DNA of 64,000 nt from Cytophagales bacterium (GTDB taxonomy: Bacteria; Bacteroidota; Bacteroidia; Cytophagales; Cyclobacteriaceae). Position 1 is the stretch's first letter; the number at the start of each line of letters is the position of its first letter. The translations under genes were made by a program, and so were the position numbers. Shown piece by piece: positions 57,279-64,000 of this stretch. Location: NCBI GenBank assembly GCA_038209145.1, contig JBBQXZ010000001.1, forward strand, positions 524 through 64,523. Direction: 5' to 3'. The notes under the pieces were generated by a model. It was not told where the DNA came from. It did not search any database and worked only from the letters and a program-made list of their open reading frames with translations.

Positions 57279-58613
57279 TTAATACACCGGAAACTCCTTT
57301 TCCAAGCCTTCAAAATTGTCAATCATGTCCCAACCGTGATCGATGTATTGCCGTCTGACAGTAGGAGACAGGGAGCCGAATTGCAGGTAATTTAATGCTG
57401 CCCGAAGCCTACTTTCATCAGGGTCTCCCCAGTTGCGGGAGATGTCATCATTTACCAGGATGTCAACAGGGAATCCATCGTAGTATTCCGCTTTTCCATT
57501 GGCATTGGCTATGGCGAAGGTAATGGGTACCAGTTCCACATCATTGGTAGAAAGTGCCGTATTGTAGCGGGAAAGTGGAAAGGAACCCACCGGTTTGCCA
57601 TACGTATTTGCGCCAACCAAGGCAATATCCATGTAGGGTTCCAAACAGTTGATGATTAACTCACTCGCGGATGCAGAACCCCGTGAGGTGATAAACACAA
57701 TCTTGCCAATCTCCAGGTTTCCTCTTTTGCCAAAGTTCAGGGACTCGTTCAGGTTCGATTTGTCGCTATTCAGTGCGTTGGTATACATAAGCTTGCCGGA
57801 ATGCACACTCGGTATGAGCGCATTCATCAGTTGTTCTGCTACGTCTACAGATCCGCCTCCATTGTACCTCAGGTCTAGAATCAATTCCTTTATATTTCCT
57901 TCTTCGAAAAATTTGAGGGCCTCATCTACCTCCAGACTTTTAGTGGGCGTTTGACCTCGCGTGGCTTGAAAGCCGTTGTAAGCCCAATAACCTACATTCT
58001 TTCCGTCAATGTTGAAGATCTCGGTATGCAAAACGGAATTGGACTGGTAATCCGCCTTGGCCAAGGAACGGGTGGTGGTACTCCCGTTGGGAAGTCGCAG
58101 CGTAAAACTATTTTGAATCCCGGGAGTATTTGCCCCCAGCTGAAAGTTATATCCATTTCCTACACGGTATTCAGATACTGGTCTTCCATTTACACTTATT
58201 ATTTCCCAGCCCCGCTGCCATCCGTCCTTGCCAGCAGGGGCTTCCTTATAGACAAAAGAGAGGTATAGGTTTCCGTTTTCCCCAATGCCGAAGCCAAAAC
58301 CATAGCCGGCATTTTGTCCTGTAAAAGACCTGTCAAATGCCTCCCTGTTGGTTAAGTATGACCAGCGGTCAAGGGGTTCAAAAATCAAACTTGAAAGTAA
58401 TTCGTTATAGGTAGGAAAACTCGTCACATCCATATTTTCCGGAATCTGGGAATTCCAAAAATACCATTCCTTCATGGTCTGGTAAATGGCTTGTTTGATA
58501 TTGTTTTCAGTATTGACAGGGACTTCCTCATCGGGATAGCAAGAAAAAGTACCGCCTACTATCAAACCCAAAACCAAAAACATTGACAACCGCTTGTAAT
58601 TCATATTTTCCAC
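57279..58613 (-). CDS. S41 family peptidase, PDZ-containing lipoprotein
   Basis: Lipobox TFS-C, YWYFWN-like TMKEWYFW, LILDLRYNGGG, SASASE, GANTYGK. Confidence 0.9.
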   Translation of the reverse strand: MENMNYKRLSMFLVLGLIVGGTFSCYPDEEVPVNTENNIKQAIYQTMKEWYFWNSQIPENMDVTSFPTYNELLSSLIFEPLDRWSYLTNREAFDRSFTGQNAGYGFGFGIGENGNLYLSFVYKEAPAGKDGWQRGWEIISVNGRPVSEYRVGNGYNFQLGANTPGIQNSFTLRLPNGSTTTRSLAKADYQSNSVLHTEIFNIDGKNVGYWAYNGFQATRGQTPTKSLEVDEALKFFEEGNIKELILDLRYNGGGSVDVAEQLMNALIPSVHSGKLMYTNALNSDKSNLNESLNFGKRGNLEIGKIVFITSRGSASASELIINCLEPYMDIALVGANTYGKPVGSFPLSRYNTALSTNDVELVPITFAIANANGKAEYYDGFPVDILVNDDISRNWGDPDESRLRAALNYLQFGSLSPTVRRQYIDHGWDMIDNFEGLEKEFPVY

Positions 58614-58797: not shown

Positions 58798-59454
58798 ATG
58801 ACAGAAAACATAGAAAATCAAATCGATTATAGGGAAGCCATCATTCAGGGCTATGTCGAACATATGCTGGAACACGGTAGGCAACCGGCTTCGGTATTTA
58901 AATTTGCCAAATCGCTCAACATGAAGGAAGAGGAGTTTTACAACTACTTCACTTCGTTTGAGGCTATCAAATCTGCTGTTTGGGAGATGATTTTTGCGAA
59001 AACTGTCGCCGAACTGGAAGGGCAAGAGGTATATCCCTCTTATACATCGCGAGAGAAGTTACTGGGATTTTTCTTCACCTGGATAGAGAATTTGAAAAAG
59101 AATCGGTCTTACCTGTTGAGCCTTTATGGCGGGCAATCGGATTTGAAGCATCCATTACCTCAGGAAATGAAATCCTTCAAGTCAAAATTTAAGGATTTTG
59201 TGAATGAAATAATTTTGGAAGGAAAAGAAACGGAGGAAATCGCAAATCGCCCTTATCTCAGCGACCGCTATGACGAAGCAATCTGGCTACAAGGTATGTT
59301 TGTTTTCCAATTCTGGATCAAAGATACCTCACCAGGTTTTGAGAAAACTGATGCGGCCATAGAAAAATCGGTGAATTTTGCTTTCGACCTCATGGGAAAA
59401 AGTGCTGTTGACAGTTTCGTGGATTTCGCCAAATTTTTATACCAATCTAAATAA
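58798..59454 (+). CDS. TetR-like transcriptional regulator
   Basis: N-terminal HTH-like SVFKFAKSLNMKEEEFYNYF; C-terminal FWIKDTSPGFEKTDAAIEKSV. Confidence 0.75.
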   Translation: MTENIENQIDYREAIIQGYVEHMLEHGRQPASVFKFAKSLNMKEEEFYNYFTSFEAIKSAVWEMIFAKTVAELEGQEVYPSYTSREKLLGFFFTWIENLKKNRSYLLSLYGGQSDLKHPLPQEMKSFKSKFKDFVNEIILEGKETEEIANRPYLSDRYDEAIWLQGMFVFQFWIKDTSPGFEKTDAAIEKSVNFAFDLMGKSAVDSFVDFAKFLYQSK

Positions 59455-59457
59455 TCA

Positions 59458-60777
59458 ATGGCAAATAATATCAAGGAACAAACCAGTATACCAGTTTCCA
59501 AAGTACAGCGTGCGGCTAAGTTTATCCAAACTGGTGCAAGGGTAGGAGGTAACTACATGAAGCATTATGCACAAAAGGTAGTCAACCCTTCCATGACCAA
59601 GGAGCAGTTGCACCTGGACAATGCCACGGATATTTATGATTCGCTAAGTGAGTTAAAAGGCAGTGCTTTGAAAGTAGCCCAGATGATGGCGATGGACAAA
59701 AACATGCTTCCCAGGGCCTATCAGGATAAATTTACAATGGCCCAATACAGTGCCCCGCCGCTTTCTTATCCGTTGGTAGTCAAGACGTTTAAGCAATATT
59801 TTGGTGAATCTCCGGAAGGTATATTCGATACATTTACTCCCTCTGCCGTAAATGCCGCCTCTATTGGGCAGGTACATCAAGCAACGAAAGATGGTAAAAC
59901 ATATGCCGTCAAAATCCAATATCCGGGAGTAGCATCCAGTGTGAGTTCGGATTTAAATCTCGTGAAGCCTTTTGCCCGCCGCTTGTTGAACATGAACGAG
60001 CGTGAACTGGAACATTACATGGATGAGGTGGAGGAAAAACTGCTGGAAGAGACCAATTACGATCTGGAAATAAATAGGGGAACGGAAATAGCCAAAGCCT
60101 GTGGACATATCGAAAATTTGACCTTTCCTATTTATTACAAAGACCTCAGTAGTCCACGAATCATAACCATGGACTGGATGCAGGGTTTGCATATTCGGGA
60201 ATGGTTAATGACAAATCCTTCCCAAGAATTTAAAAATAAAATTGGTCAGGCCATGTGGGATTTCTATCACTATCAAGTGCATGAACTTCTTAAGGTACAT
60301 GCGGATCCCCATCCGGGTAATTTTATTATCCAAGAAAATGAAAAGCTTGCTGTGATTGATTTTGGATGTGTCAAAGTGATTCCTGAGGATTTCTACAAGG
60401 GGTACTTTGCCTTGATCAAAAAAGACTTGTTTATCAAACAGGAGGAACTGGACAAGATATTCTTCGACCTGGAATTTATCAGTGTGAAAGATACCCCGGC
60501 CGAGCAGGAATATTTCAAGGCGATTTTCAGGGAAATGATTTCACTCCTTGGGAGACCATTTCATGTCGAAGAGTTTGACTTTTCGGATGACAGTTATTTC
60601 CAGCAAATCTTCAAGCTGGGCGATCGCATTTCAAATGACAAAATGTTCCGCAAATCAAAGCTTGCGCGAGGCTCACGTCATGGATTATACATTAACCGCA
60701 CCTATTTTGGTCTCTACAACCTGCTAAATCAGTTGCAGGCAAATATCACTACAACAAAACCTGATTGGTTGAAATAA
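59458..60777 (+). CDS. ABC1/UbiB/AarF family atypical kinase
   Basis: KGSALKVAQ, AASIGQVH, VKIQYPG, HADPHPGN, IDFGC. Confidence 0.93.
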   Translation: MANNIKEQTSIPVSKVQRAAKFIQTGARVGGNYMKHYAQKVVNPSMTKEQLHLDNATDIYDSLSELKGSALKVAQMMAMDKNMLPRAYQDKFTMAQYSAPPLSYPLVVKTFKQYFGESPEGIFDTFTPSAVNAASIGQVHQATKDGKTYAVKIQYPGVASSVSSDLNLVKPFARRLLNMNERELEHYMDEVEEKLLEETNYDLEINRGTEIAKACGHIENLTFPIYYKDLSSPRIITMDWMQGLHIREWLMTNPSQEFKNKIGQAMWDFYHYQVHELLKVHADPHPGNFIIQENEKLAVIDFGCVKVIPEDFYKGYFALIKKDLFIKQEELDKIFFDLEFISVKDTPAEQEYFKAIFREMISLLGRPFHVEEFDFSDDSYFQQIFKLGDRISNDKMFRKSKLARGSRHGLYINRTYFGLYNLLNQLQANITTTKPDWLK

Positions 60778-61118: not shown

Positions 61119-61219
61119 GATACGAAGCAAAAAAGGGCGGAATGTTCTTTTAAGACTATTAATAAAAATCTTTTATTTTAACCATTATATGCTTATTATC
61201 GTGTTAAAATTTGATTTAC

Positions 61220-62416
61220 ATGTCTTCTGCTATTTCACTTAACCCAGTTTATGTCCCCGACCGGGTTATATCCAGTTCTCTTCGGATTCCCACCTACGTT
61301 TATGCTTCGGTATTTTCTAGCTTATGTATTGCCGTAGGACTGATCTGGGATATTTCCTGGCACATGAGCGTTGGCAGAGACGGTCTGTTTTCGCCGCCGC
61401 ATCTGGTCATGTACCTGGGAGCTGTGGTCGCGGGGGTTTTCTCAGGCGTACGGGTTCTGAAAACAAGCTTTTGGGGAGATGCTGGGGAAAAGGCAGCAAA
61501 CATTAAGTTTTGGGGTATATTTCACGGGTCGCTGGGTGCCATGTTTTGCATTTGGGGTGCTTTTGCTATGTTGACCTCGGCTCCCTTTGATGATTGGTGG
61601 CACAATACCTATGGGTTGGACATTAAAATTCTTTCGCCTCCCCATTTGGTGTTAGGCTTGGGGATGATCATGATACAGTTTGGCGCCATCGTAAGTGTAT
61701 TGGCAACGCAGAACAATTTTAACCTTTCAGAAAATCCAGCAATGAAATCCCGTTTACGCTGGTTGTTTGGGTTGTCTGCCGGTTTTTTGCTCGTGATGGC
61801 CTACATCATGGTATCTGAATTTTTCTTCACCAACAAAATGCATGGAGCTACCGCATACAAGGTATCAGCGATGATTTTCCCGCTTCTGATTATTTCAATT
61901 TCCTATGCATCTCCCTATAAATGGGGAGGCACCATGATGGCGGTGGCCTATTCCCTGCTTATGGCTGCCATGGTTTGGATATTGCCTTTGTTCCCGGCAG
62001 AACCCAGGCTGAGTCCCGTCTATAATCACATTACGCACTATCAACCCTTCCATTTTCCTTTACTGTTGATTGTTCCATCCATTGCAATTGACCTGATAGT
62101 AGCCAGGTGGAAAGGCATTAATTTCTGGCTTTTGGCTGTTGGTTTGTCAGTTGGGTTTTTGGCAGTATTTGTTCCGGCACAGTGGATATTTGCCGATTTT
62201 CTCCATACAGAGGCAGCCAGGGGTTGGTTTTTTGGAAGGTTTTCTTGGCCTTACAGCAGCAATCCGGACTGGGAATACCGCTTTGTGTTTTATCCTTCCT
62301 CAATAGACACAGGGTGGATGTTAGTCAAAGGGTTGGGCATCGCCTTGCTTTTTGGCATTGTCAGTTCCCGTACAGGACTTTCTTTTGGTCGGTGGATGTC
62401 TCAAGTAAAGCGTTAA
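61220..62416 (+). CDS. Polytopic membrane protein with two PmoC/AmoC-like metal motifs and a PmoA-like C-terminal half
   Basis: WDISWHMSVGRDGLFSPPH and FDDWWHNTYGLDIKILSPPH; later FP..WGGT..FP...VP....D..VFVPAQW...LH..GRWMS; about 10 hydrophobic segments. The CDS is confident; the family call is inference. Confidence 0.7.
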   Translation: MSSAISLNPVYVPDRVISSSLRIPTYVYASVFSSLCIAVGLIWDISWHMSVGRDGLFSPPHLVMYLGAVVAGVFSGVRVLKTSFWGDAGEKAANIKFWGIFHGSLGAMFCIWGAFAMLTSAPFDDWWHNTYGLDIKILSPPHLVLGLGMIMIQFGAIVSVLATQNNFNLSENPAMKSRLRWLFGLSAGFLLVMAYIMVSEFFFTNKMHGATAYKVSAMIFPLLIISISYASPYKWGGTMMAVAYSLLMAAMVWILPLFPAEPRLSPVYNHITHYQPFHFPLLLIVPSIAIDLIVARWKGINFWLLAVGLSVGFLAVFVPAQWIFADFLHTEAARGWFFGRFSWPYSSNPDWEYRFVFYPSSIDTGWMLVKGLGIALLFGIVSSRTGLSFGRWMSQVKR

Positions 62417-62420
62417 GGAA

Positions 62421-64000
62421 ATGAGAACATCCAACTATTTATTTCGATTTATCCTTTTAATAGGCTTATGGACAGGCGTCAGTAGCCATGTGGGCAGCCC
62501 CGGTGTCATATTTGAAGGCATGCTGGGTCCCTACCGGATAATGGCAACTGTCAATCCACCGGATGTCATTCCGGGAATCGCATTGGTGACGGTTATTCTG
62601 CCTGAAAATCCGAATGATATTTCACTTGAAGCCAAACCGGTTTATTGGTCTGCGGGACTGAGTGGTACCCCGGTATCAGATCCTTTGCTGCCCGTAGAAG
62701 GCGAAGTTGGGAAATATCAGCTTGAACTGTGGTTTATGGGAGTCGGTGCTTCCAGCGTGCAGTTGATCCTTAACCGGGGAACGGAGGTATTTGAAACCAC
62801 CATTCCCGTGATGGCCCTTCCGACTGCCCAAAAAGACATGCCTGTAAATTTGGGTTTGATACTTTCAGGATTGGGGCTTTTCTTGGTTGTATTGATGGTG
62901 ACCATCATTGCATCGGCCATGAGCGATAGCTTGAGAAGCCCGGGGGTACCCAGAGAAAAAAGCGGAAACGCAAGGAAAACAAAAGGGGTGGTCATTGGAA
63001 CGGTCTGCATGCTCCTGATCCTGTGGAGTGGGAAATCCTGGTGGGATAATGAAGCCGACAGTTATTTGAGAAATATATACACCCCCATAGCTGGCAATGC
63101 CCGTGTGGAATTTTCCGATCAGGGAAATTTTTTGGAGCTTACGATAGATAAGGAGCAGTTGCAGTGGGGCAGTACTGTCCGAAAAATGAGCTATATTGTT
63201 CCGGATCACGGCAAGTTGATGCACCTTTTTTTGATCCGAAAGGGAGACTTGGATGTGTTTGCCCACCTGCATCCACAGCGGATTGATTCGCTGCATTTTC
63301 GAAGTTTGCTGCCTGATTTGCCCGCGGGTGATTACCACGTTTTTGCGGATTTCACACGGTTTACGGGCTTTTCAGAAACCATCGTCGGTGAACTTACCCT
63401 TCCTGAGAAAGAACCTTTCCGGCTGATATCTGACCAAGAGGTCTCGCTGGGTAGGGATGACAGCTTCCTTATTTCCAGTAAAACCTCCTCCCAGCCTACT
63501 TCCAATTTGCTGGATGTGGATTTTCTTGTTTGCGGAAAACCGGGCATGCGCATTGATCTTGCCGGCGGATATGGGGCCATGTGGCAATCCGAGACGGAGG
63601 ATTATAAGGCAGGGAAATTGTATAGCCTCGATTTTGAGTTGTTTGATGCCGATGGAAATCCAGCTAATTTGGAGCCTTATTTGGGAATGATGGGGCATGC
63701 TGTAGCCATGAAACATGACGGCTCGGTCTATATCCATCTACATCCTACCGGCAACTATTCAATGGGTTCCCAGGAAATGCTTCTGGAACGCTTTGCCTCC
63801 GGAAAAACCGGGTTTGGACAACTACCTGCGGGGATGACGTTTATGGATAGCGTGGATCAGGTGATTTCTCTAATGGACCAACTTCCCCCTGAGGAGCGGG
63901 ACAGCTTGCTGATGGGAGGCGAAATGCACCAAATGCCCGATGATCCGGAACATGAGGGACATCAAATGGTAAGTTTTCCCTATGCTTTTCCGGAAAGCGG
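62421..64000 (+). CDS. Exported, two-TM-anchored His/Met-rich protein with predicted N-terminal His (PmoB-like topology); runs off the window end
   Basis: Manual translation, open to 64000 (526+ aa): MRTSNYLFRFILLIGLWTGVSS-HVGSPGVIFEG; TM helices at about aa 143-167 and 189-208; HGKLMH, FAHLHP, GMMGH, YIHLHP, MHQM..EHEGHQM. Not in the ORF track because no stop lies in the window. Confidence 0.8.
   Translation, partial: MRTSNYLFRFILLIGLWTGVSSHVGSPGVIFEGMLGPYRIMATVNPPDVIPGIALVTVILPENPNDISLEAKPVYWSAGLSGTPVSDPLLPVEGEVGKYQLELWFMGVGASSVQLILNRGTEVFETTIPVMALPTAQKDMPVNLGLILSGLGLFLVVLMVTIIASAMSDSLRSPGVPREKSGNARKTKGVVIGTVCMLLILWSGKSWWDNEADSYLRNIYTPIAGNARVEFSDQGNFLELTIDKEQLQWGSTVRKMSYIVPDHGKLMHLFLIRKGDLDVFAHLHPQRIDSLHFRSLLPDLPAGDYHVFADFTRFTGFSETIVGELTLPEKEPFRLISDQEVSLGRDDSFLISSKTSSQPTSNLLDVDFLVCGKPGMRIDLAGGYGAMWQSETEDYKAGKLYSLDFELFDADGNPANLEPYLGMMGHAVAMKHDGSVYIHLHPTGNYSMGSQEMLLERFASGKTGFGQLPAGMTFMDSVDQVISLMDQLPPEERDSLLMGGEMHQMPDDPEHEGHQMVSFPYAFPES

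What the first reader, a model, noticed from the sequence alone, without database searches (positions are those of the whole stretch)
62421..63044. Predicted N-terminal histidine and PmoB-like domain-2TM-domain topology
Cleavage after V-S-S would expose His23 (62487-62489), the His-brace arrangement of PmoB, LPMOs and CopC. A Pro/beta-rich domain of about 120 aa follows, then a TM hairpin with a basic cytoplasmic loop (REKSGNARKTK). Caveat: unlike PmoB, the N-terminal domain has no HxH; the HxH motifs lie in the C-terminal domain and would have to complete the site from there.
Basis: partly seen in the sequence, partly recalled or inferred. Interest (0 to 1): 0.7.

Follow-up and report, generated by a model that had tools for sequence, protein, structure and literature searches.

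The report
PmoB-like copper subunit beside PmoC-like partner
This gene encodes an unannotated membrane protein whose mature form should begin with an invariant histidine, and its neighbour is a distant relative of the copper-binding core of methane/ammonia monooxygenase, so the pair looks like an undescribed relative of that enzyme family, common in Bacteroidota.

Summary
The ORF at 62421 runs off the window (526 of about 552 aa). It has a signal peptide, then His23 (62487-62489), which is invariant in 87 homologs and present in every evaluable one of 81 species loci. The residue before it is always small. AlphaFold2 gives an eight-strand beta domain, a TM hairpin with a basic loop, and two more beta domains carrying the only HxH motifs.

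PmoB homology is not detectable. Pfam, profile-profile comparisons with PmoB and Foldseek all find nothing, and the N-domain lacks PmoB's HxH.

The context does support the analogy. A 400-aa, 10-TM gene lies next to it in 80 of 82 loci, and it is the only conserved neighbour. Its first four helices align with PmoC/AmoC (hhalign probability 88-93%, P down to 2.6e-7, 0/200 shuffles). Both copper-ligand triads line up: D47/H51/H64 with CuC and D127/H131/H145 with CuD. In an unbiased Pfam scan, AmoC is the only recurrent family (12/48 members, all below threshold). Its last six helices align weakly but end to end with PmoA (P 1e-3).

Best reading: a two-gene, copper-monooxygenase-like membrane complex, with this protein as the PmoB analogue. 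Copper binding and substrate are untested.

The parts
61211..62416 (+). Partner gene: 10-TM inner-membrane protein of 401 aa from TTG 61211. The start is more likely ATG 61220, which gives 398 aa as called in Lunatibacter. It ends 4 nt before the target's ATG.
   Evidence: ORF list. No Pfam or NCBIfam hit. More than 5154 homologs and 2293 50%-identity clusters. Adjacent on the same strand in 80/82 loci. It is the only conserved neighbour. Hydropathy and the positive-inside rule give 10 TM helices, N-in and C-in.
61334..61705 (+). PmoC/AmoC-like four-helix core of the partner (residues 42-165).
   Evidence: hhalign against PmoC/AmoC profiles: probability 76%, then 88%, 90% and 93% as diversity was added, with P from 2.3e-5 to 2.6e-7. 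0/200 local shuffles reach the real score and reversed profiles score 13-15. Pfam AmoC is hit by 12/48 diverse members, always on this region.
61349..61402 (+). First ligand triad D47-x3-H51-x12-H64 (WDISWH..GRDGLFSPPH), in periplasmic loop 1 and the start of TM2. It aligns with the PmoC CuC ligands Asp156/His160/His173.
   Evidence: Conservation: D47 48/48, H51 41/48, H64 48/48. Alignments. Ligand identities from PMC12576850.
61589..61645 (+). Second ligand triad D127-x3-H131-x13-H145 (FDDWWHNTYGLD..SPPH), in periplasmic loop 3 and the start of TM4. It aligns with the PmoC CuD ligands Asn227/His231/His245.
   Evidence: Conservation: D127 47/48, H131 44/48, H145 44/48. Alignments. Coordinated E/Q/Q replacement in one sub-clade.
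61751..62413 (+). C-terminal six-TM half of the partner (residues 181-401). Weak, collinear, end-to-end similarity to PmoA/AmoA; this is a lead, not established.
   Evidence: hhalign against a diversified PmoA profile: P=1.1e-3, probability 20%, 205 columns (partner 181-401 against PmoA 20-242 of 247). 0/200 shuffles reach the score. There is no match to the C or B profiles.
62421..64000 (+). Target gene (the finding). It encodes a protein of about 552 aa, cut by the window end after codon 526.
   Evidence: Homolog P0001 is 97% identical and 552 aa long.
62421..62486 (+). Signal peptide (residues 1-22), with predicted SPase I cleavage after V-S-S.
   Evidence: Hydrophobic core and a small residue at -1 in 87/87 homologs. 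Helix 2-19 in the AF2 model.
62487..62489 (+). His23, the predicted first residue of the mature protein and a candidate amino-terminal copper ligand.
   Evidence: Invariant. Kept at 28-32% identity in other phyla.
62487..62843 (+). Periplasmic N-domain (residues 23-141), an eight-strand beta sandwich followed by the conserved linker VPVMAxxTAQKxM.
   Evidence: AF2 of the domain alone has pLDDT 86. The Foldseek best hit is CrdA, a CopC-family protein, at E=5e-3 and TM 0.54-0.58. Weak YtkA-like Pfam hits at E about 0.05.
62844..63071 (+). TM hairpin: helix 142-168, basic cytoplasmic loop 169-180 (..PREKSGNARKTK), helix 181-217.
   Evidence: AF2 secondary structure and hydropathy.
63087..63401 (+). 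Periplasmic beta domain C1 (residues 223-327) with invariant H263, H268 (PDHGKLMH) and H282-L-H284 (FAHLHP).
   Evidence: Weak Pfam DUF6860 hit.
63462..64000 (+). Periplasmic beta domain C2 (residues 348 to about 552, cut by the window end) with H426 (GMMGHA), H439-L-H441 (IHLHP), H503/H511/H514 and a helical insert at 448-497.
   Evidence: C1 and C2 share the motif M-x-H..(13)..H-L-H-P (hhalign P=0.0023). The full-length model's PmoD (cupredoxin) Foldseek hit, E=1.5e-3, must come from C1 or C2, because the N-domain alone does not give it.

Best explanation
The ORF encodes the periplasm-facing subunit of a two-gene inner-membrane metalloprotein complex that is distantly related to the copper membrane monooxygenases (pMMO/AMO). 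The upstream partner supplies a PmoC/AmoC-like four-helix core. It carries two Asp/His/His sites at the periplasmic membrane boundary and, more tentatively, a fused PmoA-like six-helix half. The target sits where pmoB sits in pmoCAB and has PmoB's layout. Signal peptidase I removes 22 residues, so His23 becomes residue 1 and can chelate copper with its amino group and imidazole, as a histidine brace or a mono-histidine brace. A beta sandwich follows, then a TM hairpin that anchors the protein beside the partner, then two further beta sandwiches that each carry an M-x-H...H-x-H motif. I infer that the periplasmic His and His/Met sites bind copper and either stabilise the partner's intramembrane copper sites or feed them copper or electrons. 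Oxidation of a still unknown hydrophobic substrate would take place at those sites. Shown here: conservation of His23 and the cleavage context, the topology, the obligate gene pairing, and the partner's remote similarity to PmoC with both ligand triads aligned. Inferred: cleavage in vivo, copper as the metal, physical complex formation, and catalysis.
For: His23 and a small -1 residue are invariant, also in homologs from other phyla. AF2 gives the beta domain, 2 TM helices, beta domains layout at pLDDT 82 and pTM 0.78, which is the PmoB/AmoB architecture. The partner is adjacent on the same strand in 80/82 loci, usually less than 80 bp away, and in either gene order. No other neighbour is conserved. 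Partner against PmoC/AmoC: hhalign probability rises from 8% to 76%, 88% and 93% as profile diversity grows, with P down to 2.6e-7, and 0/200 shuffles reach the score. Both ligand triads and the second-sphere R-D pair are aligned. An unbiased scan of all Pfam families hits AmoC in 12/48 members, while no other family is hit by more than 2. The matrix is specific: the N-part matches C only and the C-part matches A only. E. coli CopD does not match. A sub-clade changes three of the six ligand positions together, H51E/H131Q/H145Q, as expected if they form functional sites. The ligand loops are predicted periplasmic, the same side as the target's domains. Ten invariant or near-invariant His and Met-rich motifs in the C-terminal domains and a cupredoxin (PmoD) fold hit fit copper handling.
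Against: The target has no detectable sequence or fold homology to PmoB. Its N-domain lacks the HxH that completes CuB. All AmoC Pfam hits are below the gathering score (14.5-16.3 against 26.7 bits), and HMMER against PDB chains finds nothing. The PmoA similarity is weak (probability 20%). No structure of the partner could be predicted, so the fold match is untested. Hosts are ordinary aerobic heterotrophs with no known methane, ammonia or alkane oxidation phenotype, and no copper-homeostasis or reductant genes are linked. The metal identity is pure inference.
Confidence: 0.5

Rival explanations
1. Copper capture and hand-over system, not an enzyme. The N-terminal-His domain and the His/Met-rich domains scavenge periplasmic Cu(II)/Cu(I) and pass it to the partner. 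The partner then acts as an importer or as an insertase for cuproenzymes. This would work like CopC-CopD, YcnI-YcnJ or the anglerase-HupE/UreJ fusions.
For: An N-terminal-His beta sandwich tethered to, or paired with, a His-rich polytopic membrane protein is the CopCD, YcnIJ and anglerase pattern (PMC12537917). The best PDB neighbour of the N-domain is CrdA, a CopC-family protein. There are weak YtkA-like hits; YtkA/CtaK is, from my own knowledge, a copper chaperone. M-x-H and HxH motifs are typical of copper trafficking proteins. The pair is widespread in heterotrophs that need copper for oxidases.
Against: The partner shows no similarity to CopD (P=0.25). The N-domain shows none to CopC (P=0.25). 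There is no HupE/UreJ, CopC, CopD or YcnI Pfam signal. The only family the partner resembles is the catalytic PmoC subunit. No copper-regulated or oxidase-assembly neighbours are conserved.
Confidence: 0.3
2. The complex binds or transports a different metal (Ni, Zn, Fe or Mn), or uses the sites for a non-redox role such as sensing or hydrolysis.
For: N-terminal His sites also bind Ni, as in DUF4198, Ni-SOD and Ang-1. The PmoC site held Zn in crystals (my own knowledge). The second triad has Asp where PmoC has Asn. A sub-clade replaces His with Glu and Gln, which are harder ligands.
Against: Met-rich motifs next to His (GMMGH, KLMH) and the cupredoxin-like fold hit favour copper. The ligand triads match the two copper sites of PmoC position for position.
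Confidence: 0.12
3. His23 is not a metal ligand. The hydrophobic N-terminus is an uncleaved signal anchor, or His23 is conserved for folding or for contact with the partner, and the resemblance to a histidine brace is coincidental.
For: No cleavage-site predictor or experimental data were available. AF2 confidence around residues 20-26 is below 50 in the uncleaved model. No second brace histidine is evident in the N-domain.
Against: There is 100% conservation of a small -1 residue immediately before an invariant His across four or more families of Bacteroidota and two other lineages, while the signal-peptide sequence itself is free to vary. That is the signature used to find N-terminal-His metalloproteins (PMC12537917).
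Confidence: 0.06

Closest known systems
PmoB/AmoB, the B subunit of bacterial copper membrane monooxygenases (pMMO, AMO, HMO)
   Same: Signal peptide cleaved before a histidine that becomes residue 1. Periplasmic beta-sandwich domain, then two TM helices, then a periplasmic beta-sandwich region. Encoded directly downstream of a PmoC-like gene, the same relative position as in pmoCAB.
   Different: No sequence, profile or Foldseek similarity. There is no HxH in the N-domain; PmoB uses His137/His139 with His33. The C-terminal region is twice as long, with two domains plus a helical insert, and carries two HxH motifs and many extra His and Met residues. The mature N-terminus is HVGSPG rather than HGE.
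PmoC/AmoC (Pfam PF04896), compared with the partner gene
   Same: Four TM helices carry D-x3-H-x12-H and [N/D]-x3-H-x13-H triads at the same spacing. They share the motif D.[ST]WH....RD..F[ST]P.H. hhalign probability is up to 93%. Like archaeal AmoC, the partner has only one helix before the first triad.
   Different: The partner is below the Pfam gathering score and invisible to HMMER against PDB chains. Asp replaces Asn in the second triad. Six more TM helices are fused at the C-terminus. The bacterial PmoC N-terminal region of about 100 aa is absent. The hosts are Bacteroidota heterotrophs.
CopC-CopD, YcnI-YcnJ and the anglerase (Ang-1/Ang-2)-HupE/UreJ systems
   Same: A periplasmic beta sandwich with an N-terminal histidine works beside a polytopic membrane protein that has conserved histidines. 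A mono-histidine brace, which needs no second His, is an accepted copper site in YcnI and Ang-1.
   Different: There is no homology to CopC, CopD, DUF1775 or HupE/UreJ by Pfam or hhalign. The protein is itself membrane-anchored by a hairpin and has two further His-rich domains.
PmoD/AmoD (cupredoxin-like copper protein of methanotrophs) and CrdA (CopC family)
   Same: These are the best single-domain structural neighbours: PmoD for a C-terminal domain and CrdA for the N-domain. Both are periplasmic copper proteins.
   Different: The scores are marginal (E of 1.5e-3 and 5e-3, TM 0.5-0.6). The PmoD Cx7MxH motif is absent. CrdA has no histidines.

Membership tests
PmoB/AmoB (CuMMO B subunit) | Histidine as first residue of the mature protein (His33 in M. 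capsulatus) | tested here: met
   His23 is invariant, with a small -1 residue in all homologs. All 38 PmoB sequences from metagenomes start HGE at the aligned position. Cleavage is predicted, not measured.
PmoB/AmoB (CuMMO B subunit) | HxH (His137/His139) in the N-terminal cupredoxin domain, completing the CuB site | tested here: not met
   HxH occurs in the N-domain of only 2/87 homologs and not in the window protein.
PmoB/AmoB (CuMMO B subunit) | Two periplasmic cupredoxin-like domains joined by two TM helices | tested here: met
   AF2 model: beta 29-132, helices 142-168 and 181-217, beta 223-327 and 348-552. The architecture is defined in PMC13058606. The C-terminal part has two domains, not one.
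PmoB/AmoB (CuMMO B subunit) | Sequence or profile similarity to PmoB (Pfam Monooxygenase_B; hhalign) | tested here: not met
   No Pfam hit in 1+21+10+10 proteins at E<=10. hhalign P is 0.05-0.56 against 1, 3, 38 and 42 PmoB sequences.
PmoB/AmoB (CuMMO B subunit) | Fold match to solved PmoB structures | tested here: not met
   No PmoB or AmoB chain appears in the Foldseek top 50 for the full model or the N-domain. Only the generic beta-sandwich class is shared.
PmoB/AmoB (CuMMO B subunit) | Encoded with PmoC and PmoA subunits | tested here: inconclusive
   The neighbour is PmoC-like (probability 88-93%) and possibly a PmoC-PmoA fusion (PmoA part at probability 20%, P=1e-3). There is no separate pmoA.
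PmoB/AmoB (CuMMO B subunit) | Binds copper at the N-terminal histidine | not testable with these tools
   This needs EPR, ITC or ICP-MS on protein with a native N-terminus.
PmoC/AmoC (partner gene) | Asp-x3-His-x12-His (CuC) and Asn-x3-His-x13-His (CuD) triads on consecutive TM helices | tested here: met
   D47/H51/H64 and D127/H131/H145 have identical spacing and are aligned by hhalign. 41/48 diverse members keep all six. Asp replaces Asn in the second triad.
PmoC/AmoC (partner gene) | Pfam PF04896 above its gathering score | tested here: not met
   The window protein has no hit. 12/48 relatives hit it at 14.5-16.3 bits against a cut-off of 26.7.
PmoC/AmoC (partner gene) | Remote homology by profile-profile comparison, above controls | tested here: met
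   Probability is 76-93% and P is 2.3e-5 to 2.6e-7. 0/200 shuffles reach the score and reversed profiles score 13-15. CopD, PmoA and PmoB controls are negative for this region.
PmoC/AmoC (partner gene) | Three-dimensional superposition on PmoC | not tested
PmoA/AmoA (C-terminal half of partner) | Profile similarity over the six-TM body | tested here: inconclusive
   P=1.1e-3, probability 20%, 205 collinear columns, 0/200 shuffles. It improved when diversity was added, from 8.8% and 108 columns.
CopC/PcoC | Soluble beta barrel of about 100 aa with His1 plus a second His (and Asp) forming a Cu(II) brace, partnered with CopD | tested here: not met
   hhalign against E. coli YobA gives P=0.25, and partner against YebZ (CopD) gives P=0.25. 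No Pfam CopC or CopD signal. Only CrdA appears as a marginal fold neighbour.
YcnI / DUF1775 | DUF1775 domain with an N-terminal mono-histidine brace | tested here: not met
   No Pfam hit at E<=10 in any member. No YcnI structure appears in the Foldseek top 50. The N-terminal His is shared only as a concept.
LPMO (AA9/AA10 and related) | Secreted Ig-like or FnIII-like domain with a flat face carrying a His1 plus second-His brace | tested here: not met
   No LPMO appears in the Foldseek top 50 and there is no Pfam hit. The protein is membrane-anchored and has no second His in the N-domain.
Anglerase (Ang-1/Ang-2)-HupE/UreJ | N-terminal-His beta sandwich fused to a HupE/UreJ-2 permease (PF13795) | tested here: not met
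   There is no HupE/UreJ hit in the target or the partner. Ang-1 (9GCE) is not among the Foldseek top 50.

The most novel reading that the evidence does not exclude
The pair is a complete, minimal homolog of copper membrane monooxygenase. A single polypeptide fuses a PmoC-like and a PmoA-like half. A highly diverged PmoB-like subunit with an N-terminal histidine is encoded next to it, in pmoCAB order. It would form a previously unrecognised deep branch of the CuMMO superfamily. That branch is present in more than 500 species of Bacteroidota and in other phyla, and would oxidise an unknown, probably membrane-soluble, substrate.
Probability: 0.3. Interest if true: 0.9.

Novelty: new variant of a known kind. 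Interest (0 to 1): 0.75.

Why it matters
The role of the PmoB CuB site, and which PmoC copper site is catalytic, are still argued for pMMO and AMO. Those enzymes are hard to express and come from slow-growing specialists. A two-gene relative that keeps both PmoC ligand triads and an N-terminal-His subunit occurs in hundreds of easily grown Bacteroidota, including Algoriphagus, Belliella, Mucilaginibacter and Chryseolinea. It would give a tractable system for asking what these sites do. It would extend the copper monooxygenase superfamily far beyond methane, ammonia and alkane oxidisers. It would also give two large 'hypothetical protein' families a testable function; they have more than 2,600 and more than 5,100 90%-identity clusters and no Pfam model. 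Even if the system only handles copper, it would be a new route of copper traffic in Bacteroidota.

Tried and rejected
1. Pfam and NCBIfam on the target and partner found nothing.

2. HMMER profiles of both families against all PDB chains gave only chance hits (a CtaC TM hairpin, gp41) or none.

3. Foldseek with the full-length model was swamped by generic multi-Ig proteins such as complement C3 and titin. The N-domain alone gave no hit at E<=1e-3.

4. hhalign of the target, whole and by domain, against PmoB as a single sequence, 3 PDB sequences, 38 metagenomic sequences and 4 more actinobacterial or pxm sequences gave no signal.

5. hhalign of the N-domain against E. coli CopC (YobA), and of the partner against CopD (YebZ), gave no signal.

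6. A search for other conserved neighbours, such as copper homeostasis genes, reductases or a separate pmoA, by clustering flank ORFs of 81 loci found none. The next cluster is a PAS/histidine-kinase family in 22 loci.

7. PmoD membership was rejected because the Cx7MxH motif is absent.

8. I asked whether the N-domain is a duplicate of C1 or C2. Only short G.Y.(I/V) strand matches appeared.

9. The first attempt at shuffle controls timed out because hhalign was writing to stdout. It was redone.

10. A lone pmoC locus from Methylocaldum gave no PmoA or PmoB.

12. A literature search for the motifs and for PmoC-like proteins in Bacteroidota found nothing relevant.
Full report
**What is in the window**

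The ATG at 62421 opens an ORF on the + strand that runs past base 64000, so 526 codons are visible. The closest full-length homologs are 552 aa. P0001 is 97% identical, and the Lunatibacter salilacus protein is 88% identical in the same gene neighbourhood. The window therefore comes from a Cyclobacteriaceae bacterium (Bacteroidota).

- His23 is the CAT codon at 62487-62489, after V-S-S.
- The loop PREKSGNARKTK lies between two hydrophobic stretches.
- The only HxH motifs are H282-L-H284 and H439-L-H441, both in the C-terminal part.

**Is the N-terminal histidine real?**

The protein has more than 2,674 relatives at 90% clustering. All are unnamed and none has a Pfam domain.
- In 21 and then 87 aligned homologs, down to 44% identity, His23 is invariant inside the motif H-[VI]-G-S-P-G-V.
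- The preceding hydrophobic segment varies freely in sequence and is mostly 19-23 residues long.
- The residue just before the His is always small: S48, A21, G15, T3.
- A scan of one genome per species found at least 588 species with the gene. In the 81 loci examined, every evaluable copy has the His in this position. Seventy-six carry H[VI]GSP[GS][VI] and three carry H[VI]GSAGV.
- Two homologs of only 28-32% identity, from a Zixibacteria MAG and another MAG, read 'PIHA|HVGSPNV' and 'AVSA|HVGSPNV'.

This pattern is far beyond chance. It is the signature of proteins whose mature N-terminus is a metal-binding histidine (PMC12537917). No cleavage-site predictor was available, so cleavage remains a strong inference rather than a measurement.

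**Anatomy**

AlphaFold2 on the 87-sequence alignment gave mean pLDDT 82 and pTM 0.78. The elements are:
- a signal helix at residues 2-19;
- an eight-strand beta domain at 29-132;
- helix 142-168, a short basic loop, and helix 181-217;
- a beta domain at 223-327 (C1);
- a larger beta domain at 348-552 (C2) with a helical insert at 448-497.

By the positive-inside rule the loop is cytoplasmic, so all three beta domains are periplasmic.

C1 and C2 repeat a motif: G-K-L-M-H..FAHLHP in C1 and G-M-M-G-H..IHLHP in C2 (hhalign P=0.0023). Ten histidines in these domains are invariant or nearly so. The N-domain has an HxH in only 2 of 87 homologs.

**Is it a PmoB, CopC, YcnI or LPMO relative?**

By every test available, no.
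- Pfam and NCBIfam give nothing for the window protein. Scanning 41 homologs at E<=10 gives no recurring family. The only traces are weak YtkA-like hits on the N-domain and one DUF6860 hit on C1.
- A family profile finds no PDB sequence.
- I recalled the M. capsulatus PmoB, PmoC and PmoA sequences and verified them as 100% identical to PDB chains.
- I then built PmoB profiles from PDB sequences, from 80 metagenomic pmoCAB loci and from four plasmid-borne divergent operons.
- hhalign of the target, whole or by domain, against these gives P of 0.05-0.56. Against E. coli CopC it gives P=0.25.
- Foldseek with the N-domain model (pLDDT 86) has no hit at E<=1e-3. Its best neighbour is H. pylori CrdA (E=5e-3, TM 0.54-0.58), a histidine-free member of the CopC family. 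CBM and Ig domains follow.
- No PmoB, CopC, YcnI, LPMO or Ang-1 structure is in the top 50.
- The full model also picks up the cupredoxin PmoD (E=1.5e-3). That hit must come from a C-terminal domain, and the PmoD metal motif is absent.

**The neighbour changes the picture**

A 401-aa ORF ends four bases before the target (61211-62416). It has ten predicted TM helices and no Pfam hit.
- It is adjacent on the same strand in 80 of 82 loci. It is usually upstream, but immediately downstream in three loci.
- Clustering all flanking ORFs shows that nothing else is conserved.
- The pairing persists in the two distant non-Bacteroidota loci.
- The partner is the more conserved of the two proteins, with 2,293 clusters at 50% identity.

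It carries two near-invariant, repeated motifs: WD47ISWH51..GRD..F-S-P-P-H64 and FD127DWWH131..G-L-D..S-P-P-H145. Both lie in loops predicted to face the periplasm.

The spacings D-x3-H-x12-H and D-x3-H-x13-H are those of the two copper sites of PmoC: CuC (Asp156, His160, His173) and CuD (Asn227, His231, His245). I confirmed these ligand identities in PMC12576850 and PMC13058606.

**Testing the PmoC lead**

- HMMER does not see the relation.
- Profile-profile comparison does, and it strengthens as diversity is added on either side.
  - With shallow profiles the probability is 5-8% and P about 5e-3.
  - With 48 partner homologs down to 27% identity it is 76%, P=2.3e-5.
  - After adding archaeal-type AmoC from viral contigs it is 88%, P=3.2e-6.
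  - After adding actinobacterial and pxm-type subunits it is 90%. For the N-terminal 170 residues alone it is 93%, P=2.6e-7.
- Every alignment covers about 100 columns and four helices. Each places both triads and the R-D pair on their PmoC counterparts.
- Controls are negative. Reversed profiles score 13-15 against a real score of 45-53. Of 200 local column shuffles, none reaches the real score (mean 16, maximum 28). E. coli CopD gives P=0.25.
- An unbiased scan of the 48 homologs against all 24,736 Pfam models gives AmoC as the only recurrent family. Twelve members hit it (best E=1.1e-3), and no other family is hit by more than two. The hits always fall on the same region, but all are below the gathering score.
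- One sub-clade changes H51, H131 and H145 to E, Q and Q together. That is the behaviour expected of residues that form functional sites.

**A possible PmoA half**

The partner's last six helices (residues 181-401) align collinearly with almost the whole of PmoA (residues 20-242 of 247).
- The statistics are P=1.1e-3 and probability 20%, with 0/200 shuffles reaching the score.
- The match improved from 108 to 205 columns when PmoA diversity was added.
- This half does not match the C or B profiles, and the N-terminal part does not match A.
- AmoA has six TM helices.

This is a lead, not a result. If it is true, the locus reads [C-A fusion][B-like], which is the pmoCAB order.

**Interpretation**

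It is not supported at the level of homology or of the canonical His/HxH site.

The most economical reading is a two-subunit, copper-monooxygenase-like inner-membrane complex.
- The partner holds two Asp/His/His sites at the periplasmic membrane boundary.
- The target caps them with three periplasmic beta domains.
- The target binds metal through its amino-terminal histidine, perhaps as a mono-histidine brace with a carboxylate such as the conserved E32 or D87, and through the M-x-H...H-x-H motifs.

The main rival is a copper capture and hand-over system of the CopCD, YcnIJ or anglerase type. It cannot be excluded. The hosts are ordinary aerobic heterotrophs and nothing else is linked to the pair. 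Metal identity, complex formation and any catalysis are inferred, not shown.

**What I could not do**

Model coordinates are not exposed, so the distance from His23 to the HxH motifs could not be measured. No library-wide profile-profile search was possible. The unbiased Pfam scan partly fills that gap.

**Novelty**

No paper in the searchable library contains the family's motifs or describes PmoC-like proteins in Bacteroidota. Both families lack Pfam and NCBIfam models. I rate this a new variant of a known kind: a CuMMO-related system with a fused or absent PmoA, a re-invented B subunit and a new taxonomic range.

Noticed in passing
partner homologs P0445, P0472, P0503 (alignment A6); L090:213-1469: A sub-clade of the partner family replaces three of the six putative ligands together (H51E, H131Q, H145Q) while keeping D47, H64 and D127. 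Another group changes only H51 to Q. The neighbour of P0472 still has the N-terminal 'HVGSPNV'. This may mark a switch of metal or the loss of one site.
   Followed up: partly
L089:5926-8731 (Zixibacteria MAG GCA_016867335.1): The target homolog has an in-frame stop six codons upstream of the conserved 'SA|HVGSPNV', inside what should be its signal peptide. Its partner has lost most ligands (WDISWD, WWT, SPPQ). This could be a decaying copy or a sequencing error in the MAG.
   Followed up: partly
L011, L017, L024 (Cecembia, Cyclobacteriaceae YHN15, Shivajiella): Gene order is inverted in these three genomes, with the target first and the partner immediately downstream on the same strand. The pairing survives rearrangement.
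   Followed up: partly
L063:3740-7647 (Cytophagales MAG): This is the only full-length locus without a detectable partner within 6 kb upstream or 2.6 kb downstream. A DNA methyltransferase and a second gene, which look like a restriction-modification pair, sit directly upstream on the opposite strand.
   Followed up: partly
window 63195-63275 and 63684-63746: The two C-terminal domains repeat a beta-hairpin motif, G-x-[LM]-M-x-H then about 13 residues then H-L-H-P. Each domain therefore offers a three-His (plus Met) cluster, which suggests two further metal sites besides His23.
   Followed up: partly
window 62808-62843: The linker between the N-domain and TM1 (V-P-V-M-A-x-x-T-A-Q-K-x-M-P) is as conserved as the domain cores. 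It contains two near-invariant Met residues and would lie at the membrane surface next to the partner's ligand loops.
   Followed up: no
window 58798-60777: A TetR-family regulator (TetR_C_23) and an ABC1/UbiB-type atypical kinase lie just upstream, preceded by an S41 peptidase on the opposite strand (57279-58613). The order is the same in Lunatibacter salilacus but is not conserved with the pair in other genera.
   Followed up: no
L059, L076: Two loci with typical Bacteroidota-type copies of the pair come from MAGs labelled Janthinobacterium lividum (Betaproteobacteria). These are probably mis-binned contigs or mislabelled bins.
   Followed up: no
L091-L115 (IMG/VR viral contigs): Twenty-five viral contigs carry archaeal-type amoC genes 93-97% identical to the Nitrosopumilus-type sequence. 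This is consistent with the known amoC-carrying marine thaumarchaeal viruses. They were used here only to diversify the AmoC profile.
   Followed up: no
L083-L088 (Methylocaldum gracile and related contigs): A lone pmoC copy of 297 aa sits directly downstream of an 803-aa multi-PAS sensor protein and has no pmoA or pmoB nearby.
   Followed up: no
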